This document shows positions 2,984 through 58,325 of a stretch of 64,000 nt of DNA, in pieces (position 1 is the stretch's first letter; every line of letters begins with the position of its first letter). Source of the DNA: Candidatus Woesebacteria bacterium (GTDB lineage: Bacteria; Patescibacteriota; Microgenomatia; UBA1400; MFAQ01); contig DAOORK010000001.1 of assembly GCA_035389185.1 (NCBI GenBank), positions 129,006-193,005 of the forward strand, given 5' to 3'. A program made the translations under genes and the position numbers. A model generated the notes under the pieces. That model ran no database searches, was not told the DNA's origin, and saw nothing but the letters and a program-made list of their open reading frames with translations.

Positions 2984-3952
2984 ATGACTGAACGTGGCGA
3001 AAAAGACGAAGTTAGATTGGACATTCGTGAAATGTCGGAGGAAATTCTTTCGAAAAGCCAGGATATTTTAAGCATCGAAAAGGATGATATCTCGACAGTA
3101 TTACTGCCCAAAATTGAGACATATTTATCCGAAAAAAAAGCCTCTAAATGGCTTCCCGAAGGAAACTTGCTTACTCTTGAACAGGAGTGTGGCATGAACT
3201 TGTTTTTGAACGTAATTAATTTTTGCTACAAAGATCCATCTTCCGGTCACGAATACGTTTATGTAACAGATGATGGAAAACTGATTAAAAGAGCAACTGG
3301 ATTGATCACAGCTTTATCTAGAAGCGGCATTGATTGGGATAATTTTGCGGAGGTTCAAAATCTGTCGCCTGAAAGATGGGAAGGTGTGACTCAGATATCT
3401 AGAGAGAACCCTATGTATCTTGGGGATGAGCGTTTGAAAAGGATTACTGAGTTCGCCAGCTACTTAGCTTCTTTGGGTTATGTCAATATGGATGACTTTT
3501 TGGGTGGTTGTGATTTTGATACGAAAAAAATGGTGAATATATTCGTCAACAGCCGTTATTTTAAGGATGATTTTCTTAAAAGAGCTCAGCTTGCTTGTAG
3601 AATGATAAACGATGTTTGGACGCGTCGGGGAGGGTTCCCTCTCAAAGATATTGAGACATTAACAGTGATGGCGGATTACCGCATTCCTCAAGTTTTTTAC
3701 AATCTAGGAGTGGTGACGATCAATGATTTTGAGTTGATGGATAAATTGATGACGGGGTCTCCTATCGACCCCAATAGCCGTGAAGAAAGAGCTTTACGGG
3801 CAACGGCGGTTGTTATTGGGAAGGAGGTGGCTGAGAAATTAGGAATAACTGAAGCTGATGTTGATGGTATTCTTTGGGGTCTATCTCAGGATATGGTGAG
3901 AAAGGGAGAAATGGAAATTCCACACATGATTGTGGCAACTGACGCATATTGA
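2984..3952 (+). CDS. queuosine salvage protein, QNG1/DUF2419 family (queuosine 5'-phosphate N-glycosylase/hydrolase-like)
   Basis: Recalled family blocks align: YVYVTDDGKLIKRATGLITAL, FLKRAQLACRMINDVW and especially LTVMADYRIPQVFYNLGVV (compare ITMFADYRLPQVLAHLGAL in human QNG1); length of about 320 aa fits. Confidence 0.65.
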   Translation: MTERGEKDEVRLDIREMSEEILSKSQDILSIEKDDISTVLLPKIETYLSEKKASKWLPEGNLLTLEQECGMNLFLNVINFCYKDPSSGHEYVYVTDDGKLIKRATGLITALSRSGIDWDNFAEVQNLSPERWEGVTQISRENPMYLGDERLKRITEFASYLASLGYVNMDDFLGGCDFDTKKMVNIFVNSRYFKDDFLKRAQLACRMINDVWTRRGGFPLKDIETLTVMADYRIPQVFYNLGVVTINDFELMDKLMTGSPIDPNSREERALRATAVVIGKEVAEKLGITEADVDGILWGLSQDMVRKGEMEIPHMIVATDAY

Positions 3953-3991: not shown

Positions 3992-4075
3992 GCCGGGGTG
4001 GTGAAATGGTAGCCACGCGGGACTTAAAATCCCGTTCCCTTTAAAGGAGTGCGGGTCCGATTCCCGCCCCCGGCA
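3992..4075 (+). tRNA. tRNA-Leu (anticodon TAA), class II with long variable arm
   Basis: Acceptor GCCGGGG/CCCCGGC, D-loop AAATGGTAG, anticodon stem CGGGA/TCCCG loop CTTAAAA, long variable arm, T-arm GCGGG-TCCGATT-CCCGC, discriminator A. Confidence 0.8.
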
Positions 4076-4080
4076 CTTTT

Positions 4081-4269
4081 GATCCGGTAGCTCAGCTGGA
4101 TAACAGCTTACTCGTTCTCCTATCAATAATAACTATTATTGATATGTCGGCCTGCGTTTCCTGTTATATCTGGCGCCGATAATTACTCTGTCATTATCGT
4201 CTGGATATAGCGCTCGCTCTATCTGTCTACCTGCTAAATGGTTAGTACTTAGGTTAAAATATAGATGTT
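4081..4269 (+). repeat. pseudo-tRNA-Arg unit 1: exact 22-nt copy of the tRNA-Arg 5' end, then an insert of about 105 nt and a non-tRNA tail
   Basis: 4081-4102 gatccggtagctcagctggata is identical to 4270-4291; the insert carries hairpins tcaataata-ac-tattattga and gataat-N9-attatc and is homologous to the inserts in units 2 and 3. Confidence 0.6.
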
Positions 4270-4343
4270 GATCCGGTAGCTCAGCTGGATAGAGCGACTG
4301 CCTTCTAAGCAGTAGGTCGACGGTCCGAGTCCGTCCCGGGTCA
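4270..4343 (+). tRNA. tRNA-Arg (anticodon TCT)
   Basis: Acceptor GATCCGG/CCGGGTC (one G-T pair), D-arm GCTC-AGCTGGATA-GAGC, anticodon stem ACTGC/GCAGT loop CTTCTAA, T-arm GACGG-TCCGAGT-CCGTC, discriminator A. Confidence 0.8.
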
Positions 4344-4532
4344 CAATAGTAATTGTTCTGCTTTGCAGAATCAGCTGGATAACAGCTTGCTCCCCTTCTC
4401 TTCAATAATATTATTATTGAAGTATCCAGGCTCCGCTTCCTGTTATTTCCGCTCATAACTTCGTTATGATGCTTGGAAATAGCGCGACTGCCTTCTAAGC
4501 AGTAGGTCGACTACGAGCCCTCCCGGGTCACA
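4344..4532 (+). repeat. pseudo-tRNA-Arg unit 2: degenerate 5' half, about 95-nt insert at the D-loop, then an intact anticodon arm, a degenerate T-arm and the acceptor 3' end
   Basis: 4481-4532 agcgcgactgccttctaagcagtaggtcgactacgagccctcccgggtcaca matches the tRNA-Arg 3' portion except in the T-arm; the insert starts ACAGCTTGCTCC and has hairpins ttcaataatattattattgaa and cataac-ttcg-ttatga. Confidence 0.6.
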
Positions 4533-4719
4533 AAACCAGAGATAATAAATATTTACATAATTGTCTTGCAGTAAGAGCTTGCTCCCTACGACGCACATAA
4601 CATGCGTTATGTTGCTGTCTTCAGTCCGCTTCCTCTTATATTCGCTCGTAGTTCACTCTCTTAGTTCGTTTAACTACGATGCTTGAATATAGGTCGACTA
4701 CGAGCCCTCCCGGGTCACA
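4533..4719 (+). repeat. pseudo-tRNA-Arg unit 3: related insert followed by the T-arm/acceptor 3' fragment only
   Basis: 4691-4719 aggtcgactacgagccctcccgggtcaca is identical to the end of unit 2; the insert shares AGCTTGCTCC, CGCTTCCT, GATGCTTGAATAT blocks and a cataac-atgc-gttatg hairpin (covaries with unit 2). Confidence 0.55.
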
Positions 4720-4720
4720 A

Positions 4721-4746
4721 AGAAAAACCCTCCTTGCGGAGGGTTT
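4721..4746. terminator. bidirectional terminator (A-run, ccctcc-ttgc-ggaggg, T-run)
   Basis: Hairpin flanked by A-run and T-run, between the tRNA array and the convergent nadE 3' end. Confidence 0.55.
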
Positions 4747-4750
4747 GTAT

Positions 4751-5704
4751 TTATTTAGGAAGTTTTTTGATGGCTTCCAGATATAGTTTGCCAAATTCAA
4801 TGGTGTCGATTTCCGGAAGTCCGAGACGTCTACGGCTATTCAAGACACTACAGACATTGTCACCGTAGCGCCTTTTGAAAGCAGTTTTGAGTGCCTGACG
4901 GAGAATTTTTTCAACTTTCTCTTCGGTCTCCCCGATTTCAGAGGCTACTATCTTGATTTGATATCGGTAAAGCTTGTTTTCCAGTTGGTTGAAGCCACCT
5001 TCGGTTTTGAATCCAAGTTGTTTAAGACGGCAAATAATGTAGTCACCCTTTAAGTACGGAAGACCGAGTTGGTCACTGGCTTTATTTGAGTCAGTAACTT
5101 TGAGACCGTCTCCAGGTATTGCATCAAGATTGATCTGGGGAAGTTTGTAAAACTCGCCCATGTCGTAAACCTCGTTTTTGGTAAATATCTGGATAATTTT
5201 GACATCACCTTCATCGCCATGTTTGGTGAAAAAACCCATGTATTTTTCGCTTAGGTCATCGGTGTCCAGATAAATACCACTTTCAAGTTGGGCATAATGC
5301 ATAAGACCCACCATGCGCAGGCGGCATTTGATATTGCCTTTGGCTACCCTTGCCCGCGGATGACCCTCTGGAATAGTCTCAAGAAGCGGACATGATTGGT
5401 ACCACGCAGTAAAGTCATGGTATTCCAGTTTGAGATCAAGCGCATTGCAAAGAGCTTTAGCCCTCTCGTAGTCTTCGGGGTGACTCTCGATGTCGATGAA
5501 ATAACAATGCAGATTTACAGAATATCCTTGTGAAGATAGCGTGTCTGCAGTGCGTTTGGCTATGGCGGCAACGACTGATGAGTCAATACCACCAGAAATC
5601 CCCATGACAATGTCATGGAGGCCATACAATTTTAGGTATCTTGTTAGGGCCTTTTGGGCTTTACAATCGATCTTTGTTGCTTGTTCTTGTGTGAGAATGA
5701 GCAT
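4751..5704 (-). CDS. nadE: NH3-dependent NAD+ synthetase
   Basis: PP-loop SGGIDSS near the N-terminus and the NadE-typical GNIKCRLRM motif. Confidence 0.8.
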   Translation of the reverse strand: MLILTQEQATKIDCKAQKALTRYLKLYGLHDIVMGISGGIDSSVVAAIAKRTADTLSSQGYSVNLHCYFIDIESHPEDYERAKALCNALDLKLEYHDFTAWYQSCPLLETIPEGHPRARVAKGNIKCRLRMVGLMHYAQLESGIYLDTDDLSEKYMGFFTKHGDEGDVKIIQIFTKNEVYDMGEFYKLPQINLDAIPGDGLKVTDSNKASDQLGLPYLKGDYIICRLKQLGFKTEGGFNQLENKLYRYQIKIVASEIGETEEKVEKILRQALKTAFKRRYGDNVCSVLNSRRRLGLPEIDTIEFGKLYLEAIKKLPK

Positions 5705-13628: not shown

Positions 13629-13709
13629 TGGGCAGGTGGCGAAATGGTAGACGCGCAGCGTTCAGGACGCTGTGAGGCAACTCATGAGGGTTCGAGTCCC
13701 TCCCCGCCC
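13629..13709 (+). tRNA. tRNA-Leu (anticodon CAG), class II
   Basis: Acceptor GGGCAGG/CCCGCCC (one A-C mismatch), D-loop AAATGGTAGA, anticodon stem CAGCG/CGCTG loop TTCAGGA, long variable arm TGAG-GCAA-CTCA, T-arm GAGGG-TTCGAGT-CCCTC. Confidence 0.7.
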
Positions 13710-13860
13710 ACATAAAAACATCAATATGTACTCTTGCAGTAAATATTGTGTTTTTGATTTTGTGGAGGACTCGAATGGCGCAGGCATGACTGATGCCGAG
13801 CCGGGGTCGACAGAATCGCCAGCAGGCGAGAACTGGTGACCGAGTCCCTCCCCGCCCACA
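13710..13860 (+). repeat. tRNA-linked structured element (copy at tRNA-Leu-CAG) ending in a 20-nt duplicate of the tRNA-Leu 3' end
   Basis: 13841-13860 cgagtccctccccgcccaca is identical to 13692-13711; interior AGGACTCGAATGGCG, hairpin ggcat-gact-gatgcc, GCCGGGGTCGAC, hairpin tcgcc-agca-ggcga, CTGGTGAC. Confidence 0.6.
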
Positions 13861-13899: not shown

Positions 13900-13983
13900 G
13901 CCGAGATGGCGAAATGGTAGACGCACTACCTTGAGGTGGTAGCGCCCTTTAAAGGCATGGAGGTTCAAGTCCTCTTCTCGGCA
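13900..13983 (+). tRNA. tRNA-Leu (anticodon GAG), class II
   Basis: Acceptor GCCGAGA/TCTCGGC, D-loop AAATGGTAGA, anticodon stem CTACC/GGTAG loop TTGAGGT, long variable arm, T-arm GGAGG-TTCAAGT-CCTCT, discriminator A; TATAAT-like box about 20 nt upstream. Confidence 0.75.
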
Positions 13984-13996
13984 CAAAAAACTGAAT

Positions 13997-53462: not shown

Positions 53463-56400
53463 ATGACTTTCAATAAAATATTGGATCGTTTTAGGTCTGA
53501 ATCATTTTCTGAGCGAGATAAGGGATTTAAGTTTGAAAGGCTTATTCAAGCATATTTATACACTGACCCAAAATATACCCACCTACAAAAGATATGGCTT
53601 TGGGGTGAATTTCCCTTTCGCTCCTCATTTGGAGGCCAAGATGTAGGAATTGATTTGGTTGCTAAAACATTTGAAGGTGAATATTGGGCAATACAATGCA
53701 AATGTTATCAAGAAGATAATCGCATTAATAAAGAGGAGGTCGATACTTTCTTAGCCACATCGAGTCGCAGTTTTAAGGATGAACAATTAGCAGAGATCAA
53801 ATTTAGTCACTGTCTTTGGGTTTCTACAACAAATAATTGGTCCTCAAATGCGAACGAATCGTTGCAAAATCAAAATCCTCCGGTAACCAGAATAAATCTA
53901 TCTGACTTACAGGAAGCATCTGTTGACTGGTCTAAAATAAGTGAAGGAATGTATGGTGAGAAAGCACGAACTCCTAAGAAGCAACTTAAATATCACCAAA
54001 AAGAGGCCCTTGATAAAGCCATAAACTATTTTAAGAATGACAACCGTGGAAAATTAATCATGGCTTGCGGCACAGGCAAGACTTTTACCAGTCTAAAGAT
54101 TGCAGAGGAACTGACAAATCACACTGGTACTATTTTGTTCTTAGTCCCCTCGATCGCCTTACTCGGACAATCTCTTCGAGAGTGGACAAGTGACGCCGCA
54201 GAAGAAATAAATCCTATTGCAATCTGTTCTGATTCGGAAATTACAAAAGACAAAAAAAAGAATGAAGACACCGACACCTACAGTGTAGTTGACTTAGCTA
54301 TCCCCGCCTCTACAAACATGAGAGACATTCTCAAACAATTTGAGTATTTTGAAATGGCAAAAAAGAAAGGCCTGACCGTTGTCTTCTCCACATATCAGTC
54401 AATTGATGTAATTTCCCAGACCCAGAAGAGACTTGAAAGTATCGGGAGTAAGTACCAAAAGTTTGATCTTATTGTATGCGATGAAGCACACCGTACTACT
54501 GGAGTAACGATTTCCGGAGAGGATGAATCATCATTTGTCAAAGTACACGACAATGCTTTCATTAATGCAGATAAGCGTATATACATGACTGCCACACCTA
54601 GACTATATGGTGAAGAGTCAAAGAGAAAAGCTGAAGAAACATCTGCTGTGTTGTGCTCAATGGATGATGAGGCACTTTATGGTAAAGAAATATATCGCAT
54701 TGGCTTTGGTGAGGCAGTTGAACGAGATTTACTGTCGGACTACAAGGTCTTAATCCTTACTCTTTCCGAAAATGATGTAACTCCAGAGGTCCAAAAAATA
54801 CTCCAGAATCCTGAACACGAAATCGGTGTTGATGATGCTTCAAAGTTGATTGGATGTATAAATGCAATGTCAAAACAAATTATTAGTGATAAGGGCACTG
54901 TGAACACAAATGACCCTGATCCTATGCGACGTGCCGTGGCATTTACTTCGAGCATAAAGATTTCCAAAAAAATTACTGATTCGTTTAATGAAATTGGTGA
55001 AACTTACGCAAAATCAGTTCCGGAACTAAAACAACAAACACTAGTAAACCTTAACTCAAAACACATAGATGGATCTATGTCTGCGACTGACCGCAATGAG
55101 CTTATGTCTTGGCTAAAGGCAGAGCCTAACGACTCCCAAGAGGCTCGGGTTCTCACAAATGTTAGATGTTTAAGTGAAGGTGTTGATGTACCAACTCTCG
55201 ATGCTGTTATGTTCCTTTCGGCAAAGAACTCCCAAATTGATGTAGTTCAATCAGTGGGTCGAGTAATGCGAAAAAGTCCAGGTAAACAATATGGTTATAT
55301 TATTATTCCTATTGTTATCCCAACAGATGTTAAACCTGAAGATGCTCTGAAAGATAATGATAGATATAAGGTTGTCTGGACAGTATTAAACGCACTACGT
55401 GCACATGATGACCGATTTAACGCGATTGTAAATAAGATCGATCTAAACAAAAATCGTCCAGTACAAATTATTATCGGAAGGCCAGATCCAGATGGTGATG
55501 GAGATCCTTTTAATGATTCTGACGAATCAAAAAAGGCACTCAAGGGTTCTCAGCTAGCATTACAATTTGATCAACTCCAAAATGCTATTTATGCGAAAAT
55601 GGTGCAAAAAGTTGGTGATCGTCAATATTGGGAAAACTGGGCAAAAAGTGTTGCAGACATAGCTGAAAGGCAGATTGTAAGAATCACGAAGATAGTTGAC
55701 GAAGATGACTCTGCGCACATGGGCTTCCGTGAATTTGTTCGAGGTCTACGAAAAAATATAAATCCATCGATAACTGAACAGCAGGCTATTGAAATGTTGT
55801 CGCAACACATAATCACAAAACCAGTTTTTGAGGCATTGTTTGAAGGGTATTCTTTTGTTTCAAACAATGCAGTGTCCATATCTATGCAAAAAGCACTTGA
55901 TGCTATAGAAACAAAGGCTATCGAAGATGTTGATGCAGAGCTTCTTCAGGGGTTTTATAAATCAGTTCGAAAACGAGCAGAGGGAATTGATAATTCAGAA
56001 GGAAAACAAAGAATAATAGTTGAGCTTTACGACAAATTTTTTAAGACTGCATTTCCAAAACTGGTAGAGCAGTTGGGCATAGTATATACACCTGTGGAGG
56101 TGGTTGATTTCATAATCCACTCCATAAATGATGTGTTACAAAATGAATTTGGTCGTAGCTTGAGTGATGAGAATGTAAATATTCTCGACCCATTCACTGG
56201 GACAGGAACATTTATTACTCGCTTATTACAGACTGGTGTAATAAAGCATCAAGATCTTGAAAGAAAATACAAGGGAGAAATTTTTGCTAATGAAATAGTA
56301 CTACTTGCCTACTACATAGCAGCAGTAAATATTGAAAATGCATATCATGATCTGCTTAAAAAAGATGTCTATGAGAGTTTTGAAGGTATTGTTCTTACTG

Positions 56401-58325
56401 ACACCTTCCAGCTGAGTGAAGATGGCGACAATGAAAAATTATTTTGTGATGCGTTAGCAGAAAACTCAGAGAGACTTGAACGTCAGAAAAATACACCTCT
56501 TAAAGTGATCATGGGAAACCCACCATATTCGGTTGGCCAAACTTCAGCAAATGACGCGTCACAAAATCAAAGCTATCCAAAACTAGAAAACCGAATCGGA
56601 CAGACATATGTATCTCAAATCACCGATAACACCCTCAAGCAATCACTATATGATGCATATATTAAGGCGTTCCGCTGGGCCACTGATCGCCTTGATAAAG
56701 ATGGTGGAATTATCTGTTTTGTTTCTAATGGAGCCTGGCTTGACGGAAAAGCTACCTCTGGATTTAGAAAAACAATTGAAAATGAGTTTACTAGTGTTTA
56801 TGTCTTTAATCTTCGAGGTAACCAACGAACAAATGGAGAAGAATCTCGTCGCGAGGGGGGGAAAATATTCGGAAGTGGCTCTCGTACACCGATTTCTATC
56901 ACACTACTAGTCAAAAATCCAAACAAACATAACGATAAAGCTGAGATTTTGTATCACGACATTGGAGACTATCTAAGTCGGGAAGAAAAACTGAAAATTA
57001 TATCTGATTTTAAGACAGTATCAAATCAAAAATTAGTCTGGAAAACGCTTAATCCAAACAATGAGGGAGATTGGATAAACAAACGTCATAGCATTTTTGA
57101 TACTTATGTAGAGCTTGGTTCAAAAGCTAAAAATAAGAACTCGTGCTTTGATCTGTATTCTGCTGGAGTTATTACGCATCGCGATGCATGGGTTTACGAC
57201 TTCAGCGAAATTAAGCTGGAAGATAAACTAACCAGAATGATTTCCTTTTATAACAGTGAGGCAAAAAAGCTGCAAGTGATGAGGCAAAAAAATCATAGAG
57301 TATCTGTCGAGAAAAGTGTTAATAAAGATTCTAAACTTATCAAATGGGATCGTAGGCTGTATGAACATGCTGATAAATCTGTAGTTCACACCTTTAATAG
57401 TGCTGATATTTATACAACGCTATATCGCCCATTCTCGAAACAACATTATTATTTCAATAAAAATTTAAGCTGGAGCAGATACTTACAACCGAAGCTATTT
57501 CCCTACCCCACGAGCAGTAATCTTGTGATCTGCACCACAGGACCAGGAGCAAACAAGGATTTTTCTGCATTAATGAGCAATGTTGTCACTGACTTCCATA
57601 CGTTAATGAATAATCAATCTTTTCCGCTATATTACTATGAAAAGAATGAACAAAATATTCCTTCTCTTTTCGATTTAGAAAAGAATAACGAATATAACAA
57701 GAGAGATAGTATAAGTGATTACGTTTTGCGTAAAGCACAAACACAATATTCTGATAATGAAATCAGCAAAGAAGATATCTTTTATTACATATATGGACTG
57801 CTTCATAGCATGGACTATCGAATTGAGTTTGCAAATGATTTAAAAAAAATGTCACCTAAAATTCCCCTTGTTGAAACAATAAGTGATTTCAAGAAATTTA
57901 GTAAAGCAGGTAGAAAATTGGGAGAACTACATGTAAACTACGAAAAAGTTCCCCCATATGAAGGTGTTAGGGTGAGCGGGACACAGCACAATAACTATCT
58001 TGTTGAGAAACTCAAATTCATTAAGAAGGGACAACGTGACACAATAATATTTAACAATCAAATAAAGATTGAGAATATCCCCGAAATTGCTTATAAGTAT
58101 GTTGTAAATGGGAAGAGTGCAATTGAATGGATTGTCGAGAAATATCAGATTAAAACGGATAAGGAAAGCGGAATAGTTAATGATCCAAATGATTGGGCGA
58201 AGGAAGTTGGAAATCCCAGATATATTCTTGATTTGCTTCTGAGTGTAATTAATTTAAGTGTTCAAACAGTGGACATTGTAAATAGCTTACCCAAGCTAAG
58301 TTTTGACACTGGGACAAAAGAATAA
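53463..58325 (+). CDS. Type ISP-like single-polypeptide restriction-modification enzyme (Mrr nuclease, SF2 helicase-like ATPase, gamma-class N6-adenine methyltransferase, target-recognition domain)
   Basis: N-terminus GQDVGIDLVA...IQCKCY (Mrr PD-QxK); LIMACGTGKTFT (motif I), VCDEAHRTTG (DEAH), QSVGRVMR (motif VI); DPFTGTGTF (methyltransferase motif I) then NPPY; 1620 aa. Confidence 0.7.
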   Translation: MTFNKILDRFRSESFSERDKGFKFERLIQAYLYTDPKYTHLQKIWLWGEFPFRSSFGGQDVGIDLVAKTFEGEYWAIQCKCYQEDNRINKEEVDTFLATSSRSFKDEQLAEIKFSHCLWVSTTNNWSSNANESLQNQNPPVTRINLSDLQEASVDWSKISEGMYGEKARTPKKQLKYHQKEALDKAINYFKNDNRGKLIMACGTGKTFTSLKIAEELTNHTGTILFLVPSIALLGQSLREWTSDAAEEINPIAICSDSEITKDKKKNEDTDTYSVVDLAIPASTNMRDILKQFEYFEMAKKKGLTVVFSTYQSIDVISQTQKRLESIGSKYQKFDLIVCDEAHRTTGVTISGEDESSFVKVHDNAFINADKRIYMTATPRLYGEESKRKAEETSAVLCSMDDEALYGKEIYRIGFGEAVERDLLSDYKVLILTLSENDVTPEVQKILQNPEHEIGVDDASKLIGCINAMSKQIISDKGTVNTNDPDPMRRAVAFTSSIKISKKITDSFNEIGETYAKSVPELKQQTLVNLNSKHIDGSMSATDRNELMSWLKAEPNDSQEARVLTNVRCLSEGVDVPTLDAVMFLSAKNSQIDVVQSVGRVMRKSPGKQYGYIIIPIVIPTDVKPEDALKDNDRYKVVWTVLNALRAHDDRFNAIVNKIDLNKNRPVQIIIGRPDPDGDGDPFNDSDESKKALKGSQLALQFDQLQNAIYAKMVQKVGDRQYWENWAKSVADIAERQIVRITKIVDEDDSAHMGFREFVRGLRKNINPSITEQQAIEMLSQHIITKPVFEALFEGYSFVSNNAVSISMQKALDAIETKAIEDVDAELLQGFYKSVRKRAEGIDNSEGKQRIIVELYDKFFKTAFPKLVEQLGIVYTPVEVVDFIIHSINDVLQNEFGRSLSDENVNILDPFTGTGTFITRLLQTGVIKHQDLERKYKGEIFANEIVLLAYYIAAVNIENAYHDLLKKDVYESFEGIVLTDTFQLSEDGDNEKLFCDALAENSERLERQKNTPLKVIMGNPPYSVGQTSANDASQNQSYPKLENRIGQTYVSQITDNTLKQSLYDAYIKAFRWATDRLDKDGGIICFVSNGAWLDGKATSGFRKTIENEFTSVYVFNLRGNQRTNGEESRREGGKIFGSGSRTPISITLLVKNPNKHNDKAEILYHDIGDYLSREEKLKIISDFKTVSNQKLVWKTLNPNNEGDWINKRHSIFDTYVELGSKAKNKNSCFDLYSAGVITHRDAWVYDFSEIKLEDKLTRMISFYNSEAKKLQVMRQKNHRVSVEKSVNKDSKLIKWDRRLYEHADKSVVHTFNSADIYTTLYRPFSKQHYYFNKNLSWSRYLQPKLFPYPTSSNLVICTTGPGANKDFSALMSNVVTDFHTLMNNQSFPLYYYEKNEQNIPSLFDLEKNNEYNKRDSISDYVLRKAQTQYSDNEISKEDIFYYIYGLLHSMDYRIEFANDLKKMSPKIPLVETISDFKKFSKAGRKLGELHVNYEKVPPYEGVRVSGTQHNNYLVEKLKFIKKGQRDTIIFNNQIKIENIPEIAYKYVVNGKSAIEWIVEKYQIKTDKESGIVNDPNDWAKEVGNPRYILDLLLSVINLSVQTVDIVNSLPKLSFDTGTKE

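What the first reader, a model, noticed from the sequence alone, without database searches (positions are those of the whole stretch)
4081..4719. Tandem array of three ~189-bp pseudo-tRNA-Arg units, each with a ~95-nt insert at the D-loop, flanking the intact tRNA-Arg(TCT)
Unit 1 (4081-4269) starts with a perfect 22-nt copy of the tRNA-Arg 5' end. Unit 2 (4344-4532) ends with the anticodon arm, a degenerate T-arm and the acceptor 3' end. Unit 3 (4533-4719) ends with the same T-arm/acceptor fragment as unit 2 (identical 29 nt). That fragment differs from the intact gene, so units 2 and 3 derive from each other by duplication. The three inserts are homologous (ACAGCTT(A/G)CTC start, CGCTTCCTGTTAT block, GATGCTTG(G/A)AAT end) and carry covarying hairpins: gataat-N9-attatc, cataac-ttcg-ttatga and cataac-atgc-gttatg. 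The unit lengths are nearly constant at 189, 189 and 187 bp. This could be an expanded-D-loop tRNA-like gene family, a SINE-like tRNA-derived repeat, or serial integration footprints. None of these is standard for a bacterial tRNA locus.
Basis: seen in the sequence. Interest (0 to 1): 0.7.

Follow-up and report, generated by a model that had tools for sequence, protein, structure and literature searches.

The report
Interspersed structured repeat splitting tRNA-Arg copies
The three "pseudo-tRNA units" are three copies of a previously undescribed ~105-120-nt hairpin-rich repeat, scattered through the genomes of tiny uncultured (CPR/Patescibacteria) bacteria, that sit inside leftover pieces of the arginine tRNA gene next to the one working copy.

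Summary
The exact repeats are 24 nt (4079-4102 = 4268-4291) and 32 nt (4503-4534 = 4690-4721), and the three inserts are homologous. The interpretation needs changing. The insert, here called E (E1 4101-4212, E2 4380-4484, E3 4572-4694), is not derived from tRNA and is not specific to this locus. A degenerate pattern hit more than 116 metagenome contigs and no viral contigs. Those copies lie between housekeeping genes, tRNA genes and rRNA genes. E has fixed ends (R-TAAGAG...ATATA-R), no terminal inverted repeats and no linked transposase. Its two-domain fold is backed by strong covariation: 94.5% of cells paired against 82% when shuffled. Rfam and a literature sequence search gave no match. 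About 22% of copies are flanked by 17-61-nt duplicated host sequence, mostly tRNA ends. Neither the units nor their E-deleted versions are called as tRNAs. Copies at the same locus in different genomes are 94-99% identical while their flanks are 51-80% identical. E is therefore either under selection or spreading in a homing-like way. The window comes from a Microgenomates (Collierbacteria/Woesebacteria-like) chromosome. The units are co-transcribed passengers of the tRNA-Leu/tRNA-Arg operon. The element's function and its means of moving remain unknown.

The parts
3992..4076 (+). tRNA-Leu(TAA), first gene of the transcription unit
   Evidence: ARAGORN. Rfam tRNA, 56 bits. It is 100% identical in L007.
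4079..4102 (+). A': exact 24-nt copy of the tRNA-Arg 5' end (2 upstream bases plus positions 1-22), cut in the D-loop at GGATA|
   Evidence: the repeat finder family D6. It sits directly after tRNA-Leu. That is where the whole tRNA-Arg gene sits in relatives without the element, L005, L006 and L017.
4101..4212 (+). E1: copy of the interspersed structured element (TAACAG/CTGTTA variant, subtype with CGATAAT...ATTATCG hairpin)
   Evidence: nhmmer E = 1e-17 to 1e-29. Fold z-score -3.8. The copy at the same locus in L007 (5199-5309, minus strand) is 94% identical, while the adjacent spacer cannot be aligned.
4213..4269 (+). Spacer upstream of tRNA-Arg with a conserved -10-like GGTTAAAATAT box (4252-4262). 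It is not a tRNA remnant.
   Evidence: The box is shared with L007 and with L009, which has no element here. That it acts as a promoter is inferred. The consensus scan did not call it.
4270..4344 (+). Intact, presumably functional tRNA-Arg(TCT)
   Evidence: ARAGORN. Rfam tRNA, 65 bits.
4345..4381 (+). Spacer plus A'': decayed tRNA-Arg 5' part (4360-4381, GCTTTGCAGAATCAGCTGGATA) adjoining E2
   Evidence: Family D1. Read directly from the sequence. The same segment in L202 is about 78% identical.
4380..4484 (+). E2: second copy of the element (TAACAG variant, CATAAC-TTCG-TTATG hairpin)
   Evidence: The copy at the same locus in L202 (3543-3646, minus strand) is 95% identical, and 4 of the 5 differences lie in hairpin loops. 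NadE next to it is 51% identical at the amino-acid level.
4485..4534 (+). B'': tRNA-Arg 3' part (anticodon arm, degenerate T-arm, acceptor 3' strand, plus 3 nt)
   Evidence: Families D3 and D4. In L202 the same fragment keeps an intact T-arm but has a damaged anticodon stem.
4535..4571 (+). Y3: 37-nt AT-rich spacer ending in GCAG(TA), the tRNA sequence that precedes the variable loop
   Evidence: Read directly from the sequence. L035 has the same GCAG|TAAGAG junction.
4572..4694 (+). E3: third copy of the element. It belongs to a different subfamily (CCCTACGACGCACATAAC...), whose closest relatives are at unrelated loci (L088, L172, L153).
   Evidence: It is 63-65% identical to E1 and E2.
4690..4721 (+). 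B''': exact 32-nt copy of the end of B'' (degenerate T-arm, acceptor 3' strand, AAA). It lies directly before the terminator. That is where the end of the tRNA-Arg gene lies in L009, and the end of fragment B'' in L202.
   Evidence: Family D4. Comparison with L009 and L202.
4725..4746 (.). Bidirectional intrinsic terminator shared with the convergent NAD synthase gene (4751-5704, minus strand)
   Evidence: scan_promoters_terminators. No terminator-like site lies between 3992 and 4725.

Best explanation
The region is a tRNA-Leu/tRNA-Arg operon of a CPR (Microgenomates) bacterium. Three independent copies of a small interspersed structured element (E, about 105-123 nt) lie inside leftover pieces of tRNA-Arg.

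What E looks like:
- Defined ends (R-TAAGAG ... ATATA-R), no ORF and no terminal inverted repeats.
- A conserved fold of two stacked hairpin domains.
- Its 5' end (AGAG) and its 3' end (GAUAUA) both pair with one central strand (CUCUUAUAUC).

How the locus arose:
- E enters DNA at (A)TA sites. In tRNA genes these are the AT-rich loops: GGATA|GAGC in the D-loop for E1 and E2, and GCAGTA|GGTC in the variable loop for E3.
- The flanking tRNA pieces (A', A'', B'', B''') are host sequence duplicated or displaced at these events. They are now decaying.
- One uninterrupted tRNA-Arg (4270-4344) does the work.
- E1 and E2 are old, because each is shared with another genome. E3 is a later insertion into the already dead fragment B''. 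It still produced an exact duplication of about 29-32 nt.

Expression: everything from 3992 to the terminator at 4725-4746 is probably transcribed together. The E copies would then be made as spacer or trailer RNA of the tRNA operon.

Shown: repeat family membership, fold and covariation, element boundaries, dispersal across loci, the flanking duplications, and conservation above that of the flanks.

Inferred:
- E is, or was, mobile through a structure-dependent mechanism supplied in trans or homing-like.
- Its fold is the selected feature.
- At the RNA level it acts, if at all, as a processing or stability module in polycistronic transcripts.
For: 1. E is a dispersed family.
- There are 129-133 profile hits.
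- Many pairs are 88-98% identical with unrelated flanks.

2. The neighbours are housekeeping genes (DnaK, MreB, DnaE, EF, S1, L19, aminoacyl-tRNA synthetases, TsaD). No transposase or integrase is enriched among them.

3. The fold is supported.
- 94.5% of cells are paired, against 82.4% when shuffled and 36-56% when the partners are slid.
- 289 cells have changes on both sides, against 73 in shuffles.
- G4-C82 switches to C-G in all four TAACAG copies.
- G10-C76 switches to A-U in 11 copies.

4. The boundaries are sharp, with random sequence outside them.

5. 22 of 100 copies have flanking direct duplications of 17-61 nt. Most are tRNA ends, but some are not: the sufB stop region in L097 and a promoter region in L088.

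6. Relatives show presence or absence at this locus.
- L005, L006 and L017: Leu-Arg-terminator, with no E.
- L007: E1 only.
- L035: only a downstream unit inserted at the same GCAG|TA junction as E3.
- L202: only the E2 unit is visible on the contig, which ends inside tRNA-Arg.

7. Copies at the same locus in different genomes are far more conserved than their surroundings.
- E1: 94%.
- E2: 95%, against NadE at 51% amino-acid identity.
- Other loci: 94-99%, against flanks at 67-80%.

8. The units are not tRNAs, with or without E.

9. There is one terminator, at the end of the region.
Against: - No transposase, integrase or longer autonomous form of E was found. Only the top 25 of 83 Pfam families matched by the window's ORFs were displayed.
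- No target duplication beyond a possible TA/ATA can be shown for ordinary copies.
- High conservation at the same locus across genomes fits a host-selected RNA as well as it fits a homing element.
- In L202 the intact tRNA and the displaced fragment carry different but each internally consistent T-arms. The flanks there are therefore not a simple insertion-generated duplication.
- The strand of the functional form is ambiguous. There are more G-U pairs on the + strand (177 against 76), but the - strand folds slightly better.
- Orientation bias relative to neighbouring genes is weak: 29 against 15 in tandem contexts.
- Only 3 copies occur in this 64-kb window, and all are at this locus.
Confidence: 0.75

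Rival explanations
1. E is mainly a host-selected cis-acting or small RNA module. It might be an RNase III/processing and transcript-stabilising element, or a protein-binding RNA, placed in tRNA, rRNA and housekeeping operons. On this reading it is not a selfish mobile element. New copies arise rarely, and the tRNA fragments are accidents of those events.
For: - Copies at the same locus in different genomes are 94-99% identical where flanks are 51-80% identical. The few changes lie in hairpin loops.
- Covariation is strong.
- Copies lie in the 16S-tRNA-Ile spacer, inside tRNA operons, and directly before the start codons of housekeeping genes. In some, E's TAA or ATG serves as the stop or start codon.
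- No transposase is linked.
Against: - About one third of copies face the 3' end of a convergent gene or are antisense to both neighbours.
- Exact duplications flank several copies, which points to recent DNA-level events.
- Many near-identical copies have unrelated flanks.
- No Rfam family matches, and no shared downstream gene class suggests a regulatory ligand.
Confidence: 0.35
2. These are serial site-specific integration footprints. Miniature derivatives of tRNA-targeting integrative elements (like cis-mobilisable elements left by ICEs or prophages) stacked up at tRNA-Arg. E would be the att-proximal arm, and the tRNA pieces would be attL/attR identity blocks.
For: - Direct repeats of the tRNA 3' end flank [spacer+E] downstream of an intact tRNA in units 2 and 3 and in L110, L183, L194 and L119. 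The repeat ends within a few nt of the tRNA end.
- In L202 the intact gene and the displaced fragment have different T-arms, as expected if incoming DNA supplied a replacement part.
- A second element family shows the same layout with T-loop-to-3'-end repeats.
- Partial tRNA genes are a known by-product of element integration (PMC9897764).
Against: - No integrase lies near any copy.
- Most E copies lie at non-tRNA intergenic sites with no repeat.
- Junctions fall in D, anticodon, variable and T loops, and in both orientations. A site-specific integrase would not do this.
- Covarying hairpins point to a single-strand structure, not to protein arm sites.
- There are no viral-contig hits.
Confidence: 0.12
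3. The units are functional tRNA-like genes with an expanded D-loop or an intron that is removed after transcription.
For: - Inserts 1 and 2 sit exactly in the D-loop, with D-loop-like sequence on both sides.
- Patescibacteria are unusually rich in tRNA introns (PMC13011429).
Against: - There is no acceptor stem in units 2 and 3. Unit 1 has no 3' half. The T-arm is degenerate.
- ARAGORN finds nothing in the units, in their E-deleted versions, or in an A'+B'' chimera.
- There is no group I intron or any other Rfam hit.
- E occurs away from tRNAs and antisense to tRNAs.
- The tRNA pieces decay faster than E.
Confidence: 0.03
4. The region is a purely local tandem duplication of a [tRNA-Arg + spacer] block followed by decay. 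No separate element is involved.
For: Spacings of 187-190 bp between successive tRNA-derived repeats.
Against: - TRF finds no array.
- The inserts are spaced 279 and 192-193 bp apart, out of register with the 187-190-bp spacing of the tRNA-derived repeats.
- E2 and E3 belong to different subfamilies, whose nearest relatives are at unrelated loci.
- Relatives carry single units.
Confidence: 0.03

Closest known systems
Small non-autonomous intergenic repeats of bacteria (Correia/NEMIS of Neisseria, ERIC/IRU, RUP, bcr1, Rickettsia palindromic elements, MIRU). Compared from general knowledge, not by sequence.
   Same: - About 100-150 nt, with no ORF and many dispersed copies in intergenic and operon-internal positions.
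- Able to form long hairpins, and co-transcribed with neighbouring genes.
- Sometimes supply stop or start codons to neighbouring genes.
- Insert at TA-containing sites.
   Different: - E has no terminal inverted repeats, and no demonstrable short target duplication.
- Its stems covary like those of an RNA.
- Copies at the same locus in different genomes are far more conserved than flanking coding DNA.
- A fifth of copies carry 17-61-nt duplications of host sequence.
- No partner transposase is known.
IS200/IS605-derived miniature elements (PATEs) and REP/BIME elements mobilised by Y1 (HUH) transposases. Compared from general knowledge.
   Same: - No inverted terminal repeats and asymmetric ends.
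- Subterminal hairpins about 18 nt from the left end and about 8-10 nt from the right end.
- An internal strand that base-pairs with the element's own end, like the guide/cleavage-site pairing of IS608.
- The structure matters in single-stranded form.
   Different: - No TnpA, TnpB or RAYT gene was found near any copy or among the window's displayed Pfam hits.
- The Rfam IS605-orfB-II hit is noise: 17 bits against a threshold of 88.
- The pairing is 7-11 bp, not 4.
- Long flanking duplications are not a feature of that family.
tRNA gene fragments left by integrative elements (att-site duplications; accretion of cis-mobilisable elements)
   Same: An intact tRNA is followed by one or more direct copies of its 3' part, separated by foreign sequence. 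Such fragments are known to confuse tRNA annotation (PMC9897764).
   Different: - The foreign sequence is only about 140-170 nt, has no genes, and belongs to a family found mostly away from tRNAs.
- 5'-end fragments also occur (unit 1, L098, L121, L154).
- The breakpoints lie in several different loops.
Group I introns in Patescibacteria tRNA genes (PMC13011429)
   Same: The same phylum, and the same theme of tRNA genes interrupted by structured RNA-like inserts.
   Different: - Those introns sit in the anticodon loop of intact, spliced tRNAs and match Rfam intron models.
- E is half their size or less and has no intron hit.
- E interrupts dead gene copies and occurs in both orientations.

Membership tests
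Functional tRNA / tRNA with expanded D-loop or intron | Cloverleaf detectable by tRNA models, before or after removal of the insert | tested here: not met
   ARAGORN and Rfam call only 3992-4076 and 4270-4344. No tRNA is found in the full or E-deleted units, or in the A'+B'' chimera.
Functional tRNA / tRNA with expanded D-loop or intron | Paired acceptor stem and intact T-arm | tested here: not met
   Units 2 and 3 lack the GATCCGG 5' strand. Unit 1 lacks a 3' strand. The T-arm is GACTACGAGCCCTCC, against GACGGTCCGAGTCCGTCC in the gene.
Group I intron in tRNA | Match to an intron covariance model; insertion in the anticodon loop of an otherwise intact tRNA | tested here: not met
   No Intron_gpI or other hit at E <= 10. 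The insertion sites here are the D and variable loops of decayed copies.
Simple tandem repeat array | Head-to-tail copies detectable as a periodic array | tested here: not met
   TRF gives 0 rows at score >= 30. Insert spacing is 279/192-193 bp, against 187-190 bp for the tRNA pieces.
MITE (miniature inverted-repeat transposable element) | Many dispersed, short, non-coding copies | tested here: met
   More than 116 contigs and 129-133 copies. Near-identical copies have unrelated flanks.
MITE (miniature inverted-repeat transposable element) | Terminal inverted repeats | tested here: not met
   The consensus ends ATAAGAGCTTGCTC and GATGCTTGAATATAG are not inverted copies of each other, as read from alignment A4. 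Instead, both ends pair with an internal strand.
MITE (miniature inverted-repeat transposable element) | Fixed-length target-site duplication | tested here: inconclusive
   The longest abutting exact match is 3.6 nt, against 3.5 for shuffled partners. TA/ATA is present at both ends of every copy, so a TA duplication cannot be told apart from element sequence.
MITE (miniature inverted-repeat transposable element) | Related autonomous element with a transposase | tested here: not met
   No transposase is enriched among 150 flanking ORFs. No split copies surround cargo.
IS200/IS605-type miniature element / REP | Subterminal hairpins, no terminal inverted repeats, an internal guide pairing with the end | tested here: met
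   Hairpins P2 and P3, and pairing of the central strand with the 3' end, with covariation.
IS200/IS605-type miniature element / REP | Y1 (HUH) transposase, RAYT or TnpB in the genome | tested here: inconclusive
   None among the flanking ORFs or the top 25 of 83 Pfam families in the window. The rest of the genome was not available.
Integrase att-site footprint at a tRNA gene | Direct repeat of the tRNA 3' part bounding foreign DNA downstream of an intact tRNA | tested here: met
   4289-4321 ~ 4479-4511 and 4503-4534 = 4690-4721. The same layout occurs in L110, L183, L194 and L119.
Integrase att-site footprint at a tRNA gene | Tyrosine/serine integrase or a remnant of one; a single preferred sublocation in the tRNA | tested here: not met
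   No integrase is seen. Junctions lie in D, anticodon, variable and T loops and in both orientations. Most copies are not at tRNAs.
Any Rfam 15 RNA family | Covariance-model match | tested here: not met
   Nothing for E in the window at E <= 10, nor for consensus-like copies in 7 loci at E <= 1.

The most novel reading that the evidence does not exclude
E, together with the companion element F seen at window 13717-13860, would represent a new class of small elements of Patescibacteria. They would be gene-less and structure-guided, and would home into AT-rich loops of tRNA genes and other TA sites. Each carries an internal strand complementary to its own terminus or to the adjoining target-derived sequence. 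In F, the 5' strand tracks the T-loop sequence of the particular neighbouring tRNA. This pairing would act as a guide for insertion or excision, as single-stranded DNA or as RNA. The enzyme would be supplied in trans and is not yet identified. This would explain copies that are more conserved than the genes around them, long variable host duplications, and regeneration of the interrupted tRNA.
Probability: 0.25. Interest if true: 0.85.

Novelty: new variant of a known kind. Interest (0 to 1): 0.6.

Why it matters
CPR/Patescibacteria have tiny genomes with very little non-coding DNA. A conserved, structured, multi-copy 105-nt element wedged between core genes is therefore unlikely to be neutral.

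If E is an RNA, it is a new widespread motif with strong covariation support and no Rfam entry. It would be a candidate processing, stability or protein-binding module in organisms whose gene regulation is almost unknown.

If E is mobile, it moves without a linked transposase. It also repeatedly breaks and regenerates tRNA genes, which is an unusual way of shaping tRNA loci.

There are practical consequences as well:
- The element creates tRNA fragments that can mislead tRNA annotation.
- It breaks short-read assemblies. The Logan contigs end in the 32-nt repeat.
- It gives a convenient marker for strain-level variation in these lineages.

Tried and rejected
1. Phage origin, or T4-like stable RNAs next to tRNA-Arg (an idea from memory). 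BLAST against phages hit only tRNAs. The window encodes RsgA, BipA, NadE and similar proteins, and is a CPR chromosome.

2. Rfam families, including group I introns, ribozymes and IS605 RNAs. Nothing significant.

3. Tandem array. TRF was negative.

4. Syntenic search with the queuosine-salvage protein in GTDB genomes found nothing. TypA worked.

5. Promoter hypothesis for the 3' end of E (TGnTATAAT-like).
- Many start codons lie inside the end of the element.
- One third of copies face gene 3' ends.
- The scan calls no promoter there.

6. Terminal inverted repeats and short target duplications. Absent or undetectable.

7. Left flank resembling the element's own 3' end. The effect is statistically present but small (5.84 against 5.53 matches out of 10). 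It is partly driven by copies of the same locus from different contigs and by nested copies.

8. Autonomous long form, or split copies. None found.

9. Enrichment of mobile-element proteins next to E. None found.

10. Close relatives through NadE homologues. The nearest is only 56% identical, but one look-up (L202) gave the informative E2 copy at the same locus.

11. Literature search by sequence and by topic. No description of the element was found.

12. Strand assignment by folding energy. Ambiguous.
Full report
**1. Where the window comes from**

The window is part of contig JAKQJP010000175.1 (538 kb) of assembly GCA_029561095.1. The genes around the finding are ordinary bacterial housekeeping genes: RsgA, a queuosine-salvage protein, NAD synthase and TypA/BipA. 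The closest TypA sequences, at 80-87% identity, belong to Candidatus Collierbacteria / Microgenomates MAGs. One source names the identical NadE protein as Candidatus Woesebacteria. This is a CPR/Patescibacteria chromosome, not a phage.

**2. Checking the observation**

- tRNA-Leu(TAA) lies at 3992-4076 and tRNA-Arg(TCT) at 4270-4344.
- The 5' end of tRNA-Arg is repeated exactly at 4079-4102 (24 nt).
- Its D-stem/anticodon arm is repeated at 4479-4511 (97% identical).
- A degenerate T-arm/acceptor end is repeated exactly at 4503-4534 and 4690-4721 (32 nt).
- Each insert folds into the same two-domain hairpin structure, with z-scores of -2.7 to -5.4.

Several points need correcting.
- This is not a tandem array in the strict sense. 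TRF finds none, and the inserts are only 63-75% identical.
- The third insert is at the variable-loop position (GCAGTA|GGTCGAC).
- The tail of unit 1 is the upstream spacer of tRNA-Arg, with a conserved GGTTAAAAT box.

An independent assembly of run SRR4244858 agrees with the window and breaks exactly in the 32-nt repeat.

**3. The insert is an interspersed element**

The decisive step was to look elsewhere. In related genomes the Leu-Arg pair takes every possible state:
- In L005, L006 and L017 the two genes are 1 nt apart by ARAGORN coordinates and are followed directly by a terminator.
- L007 has only unit 1.
- L035 has only a downstream unit inserted at the same GCAG|TA junction as E3.
- L009 has an ORF between the two genes.
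- L202 shows only the unit-2 equivalent downstream of tRNA-Arg. Its contig ends inside the tRNA-Arg gene, so the upstream side is not visible.

It hit no viral contig. I call the insert E.

Properties of E:
- Its ends are sharp, R-TAAGAG...ATATA-R, with random sequence outside them.
- It has no ORF and no terminal inverted repeats.
- No Rfam family matches it.
- A literature search by sequence found no match.
- Its neighbours are core genes: dnaK, mreB, dnaE, EF-G/TypA, rpsA, rplS, aminoacyl-tRNA synthetases, tsaD, and tRNA and rRNA genes. No transposase or integrase is enriched among them.
- In this window, E occurs only at the tRNA-Arg locus.

**4. Structure**

The analysis used 101 distinct copies (alignment A4). 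The 5' GAG pairs with CUC of the central block. In all four TAACAG copies, including E1 and E2 of this window, the G-C pair has switched to C-G. A second pair switches from G-C to A-U in 11 copies. Hairpin P2, the outer stem of P3 and the inner hairpin of P3 all covary.

| Measure | Observed | Control |
|---|---|---|
| Cells forming a standard pair | 94.5% | 82.4% shuffled; 36-56% with partners slid |
| Cells changed on both sides | 289 | 73 in shuffles |

The central strand CUCUUAUAUC pairs with the 5' end of the element on one side and with its 3' end on the other. The two termini are therefore brought together on an internal splint. Both hairpins carry an AUAAY...RUUAU apex. G-U pairs favour the strand as written, but folding energies do not settle the strand.

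**5. Relation to tRNA genes**

About 22 of 100 copies are flanked by direct duplications of host DNA, 17-61 nt long. They come in two layouts.
- A fragment ends exactly at the 5' end of E, and the intact gene follows 10-55 nt after E. Examples are unit 1, L007, L098 (tRNA-Ile cut in the anticodon loop), L121 and L154.
- An intact gene is followed by 21-70 nt, then E, then immediately a copy of the 3' part of the gene. Examples are units 2 and 3, L035, L110, L183, L194 and L119.

Junctions fall at ATA/TAA in D, anticodon, variable and (reverse-strand) T loops. Non-tRNA examples also exist: the sufB stop region in L097 and a promoter region in L088.

E3 is informative. It inserted into B'', which was already a dead fragment, yet it is still flanked by an exact duplication of about 29-32 nt. 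This suggests that the duplication is part of the insertion process, and not only a survivor effect of selection for an intact tRNA.

L202 points the other way. There the intact gene carries one T-arm type and the displaced fragment carries another, intact one. At that old insertion the two copies are therefore not a simple duplicate. I could not resolve the mechanism.

**6. Conservation**

Copies at the same locus in different genomes are much better conserved than their surroundings.

| Copies compared | E identity | Surroundings |
|---|---|---|
| E1: window vs L007 | 94% | adjacent spacer cannot be aligned |
| E2: window vs L202 | 95% (4 of 5 changes in loops) | NadE 51%, TypA 87% (amino acid); adjoining tRNA remnants about 78-88% |
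| Other loci | 94-99% | flanks 67-80% |

E is therefore the constrained part, and the tRNA pieces are decaying by-products. This pattern fits purifying selection on a functional RNA. It fits recent homing-like spread of a structure-dependent element equally well. I cannot separate the two with the data at hand.

**7. How the locus most likely works**

One uninterrupted tRNA-Arg supplies the function. No terminator-like site lies between tRNA-Leu and the bidirectional terminator at 4725-4746. A'-E1, the spacer, tRNA-Arg, A''-E2-B'' and Y3-E3-B''' are therefore probably transcribed together. They would be released as spacer and trailer RNA when the tRNAs are processed. This is an inference.

None of the units, with or without E, is recognised as a tRNA. 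The expanded-D-loop or intron reading is rejected.

**8. Comparison with known systems**

E behaves like the small intergenic repeats of other bacteria (Correia, ERIC, RUP, bcr1, RPE, MIRU). Its end architecture recalls IS200/IS605-derived elements and REPs. The tRNA fragments recall att-site footprints of integrative elements (PMC9897764). E fails defining tests for each of these: it has no terminal inverted repeats, no demonstrable target duplication, no transposase, no integrase, and insertion sites in several different loops. I therefore file it as a new variant of the interspersed-repeat kind, not as a member of any named family. It is also distinct from the group I introns recently described in Patescibacteria tRNA genes (PMC13011429).

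**9. Verdict**

The tRNA-like-gene interpretation is wrong. The "interspersed repeat" and "insertion footprint" readings are partly right. Its function and its mode of spread are open.

Noticed in passing
window 13693-13860 (between tRNA-Leu(CAG) 13630-13711 and tRNA-Leu(GAG) 13900-13984): A second structured element family, F, lies here. It is followed by an exact 20-nt copy of the 3' end of the upstream tRNA-Leu (13693-13712 = 13841-13860). Related copies lie after tRNA-Leu, Asp, Lys and Arg genes in L010, L035, L155, L152, L190 and L176. Most end in an exact copy of the local tRNA's sequence from the T-loop to the 3' end. The 5' strand of F (GGGACTCG / GGGAATCG / GGGAGTCG) is complementary to that tRNA's T-loop and T-stem sequence, and mostly tracks it. 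L010 is an exception. No Rfam hit.
   Followed up: partly
L152 2822-3216, L155 585-996, L176 5970-6379: E (inverted) and F lie on either side of one tRNA gene (L152, L155) or both just downstream of it (L176). In L152 an 18-nt copy of the tRNA-Lys 5' end lies beyond E, and a copy of its 3' end lies beyond F. The intact gene looks like a cassette set inside the ends of an older gene.
   Followed up: partly
L085, L126, L165, L172, L098 (just 3' of E copies): A third short repeat follows E in several unrelated loci: a GC-rich hairpin GATTCC(C/G)G...C(G/C)GGAATGACA.
   Followed up: no
L106, L117, L143, L199 (5' end of E); L105, L106, L168, L186, L196, L199 (3' end of E): The first three bases of E (TAA) serve as the stop codon of the upstream ORF. 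An ATG inside the 3' end of E (GAATATG) is the apparent start codon of the downstream gene, for example arginyl-tRNA-synthetase-like, TsaD-like and MurA-like N-termini. No room is left for a Shine-Dalgarno sequence.
   Followed up: partly
L098 1-2215: Two E copies sit in the 16S-23S spacer region of an rRNA operon. One is just after the 16S 3' end. The other is inside a truncated tRNA-Ile copy next to the intact tRNA-Ile.
   Followed up: no
L202 (JGI Ga0066602_10008483), reverse strand of 3440-3738: The working tRNA-Arg carries the T-arm type of the element-free relatives (CCGCG/CGCGG). The displaced fragment after E2 carries, intact, the T-arm type of this window's working gene (GACGG/CCGTC). 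The functional copy has been exchanged or converted in one lineage.
   Followed up: partly
window 4079-4102 vs 4268-4291; L007 equivalents: The 5' fragment A' is identical to the working gene, including the 2 (window: TT) or 4 (L007: ATAT) bases upstream of the tRNA. Those upstream bases differ between the two genomes. This suggests gene conversion or independent re-duplication within each genome.
   Followed up: no
L009 8778-9748 (between tRNA-Leu and tRNA-Arg): A relative has a roughly 270-codon ORF of unknown function with its own terminator at the position where this window has A'-E1.
   Followed up: no
window 4136-4456 (minus strand): A 106-codon ORF overlaps E1, tRNA-Arg and E2 on the opposite strand. 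It is almost certainly spurious, but a gene caller could annotate it.
   Followed up: no
window 53463-58322 and neighbours: The far end of the window encodes a large Type ISP restriction-modification enzyme, PLD-like and Mrr-like nucleases and a PIF1-like helicase. This looks like a defence island and is unrelated to the finding.
   Followed up: no
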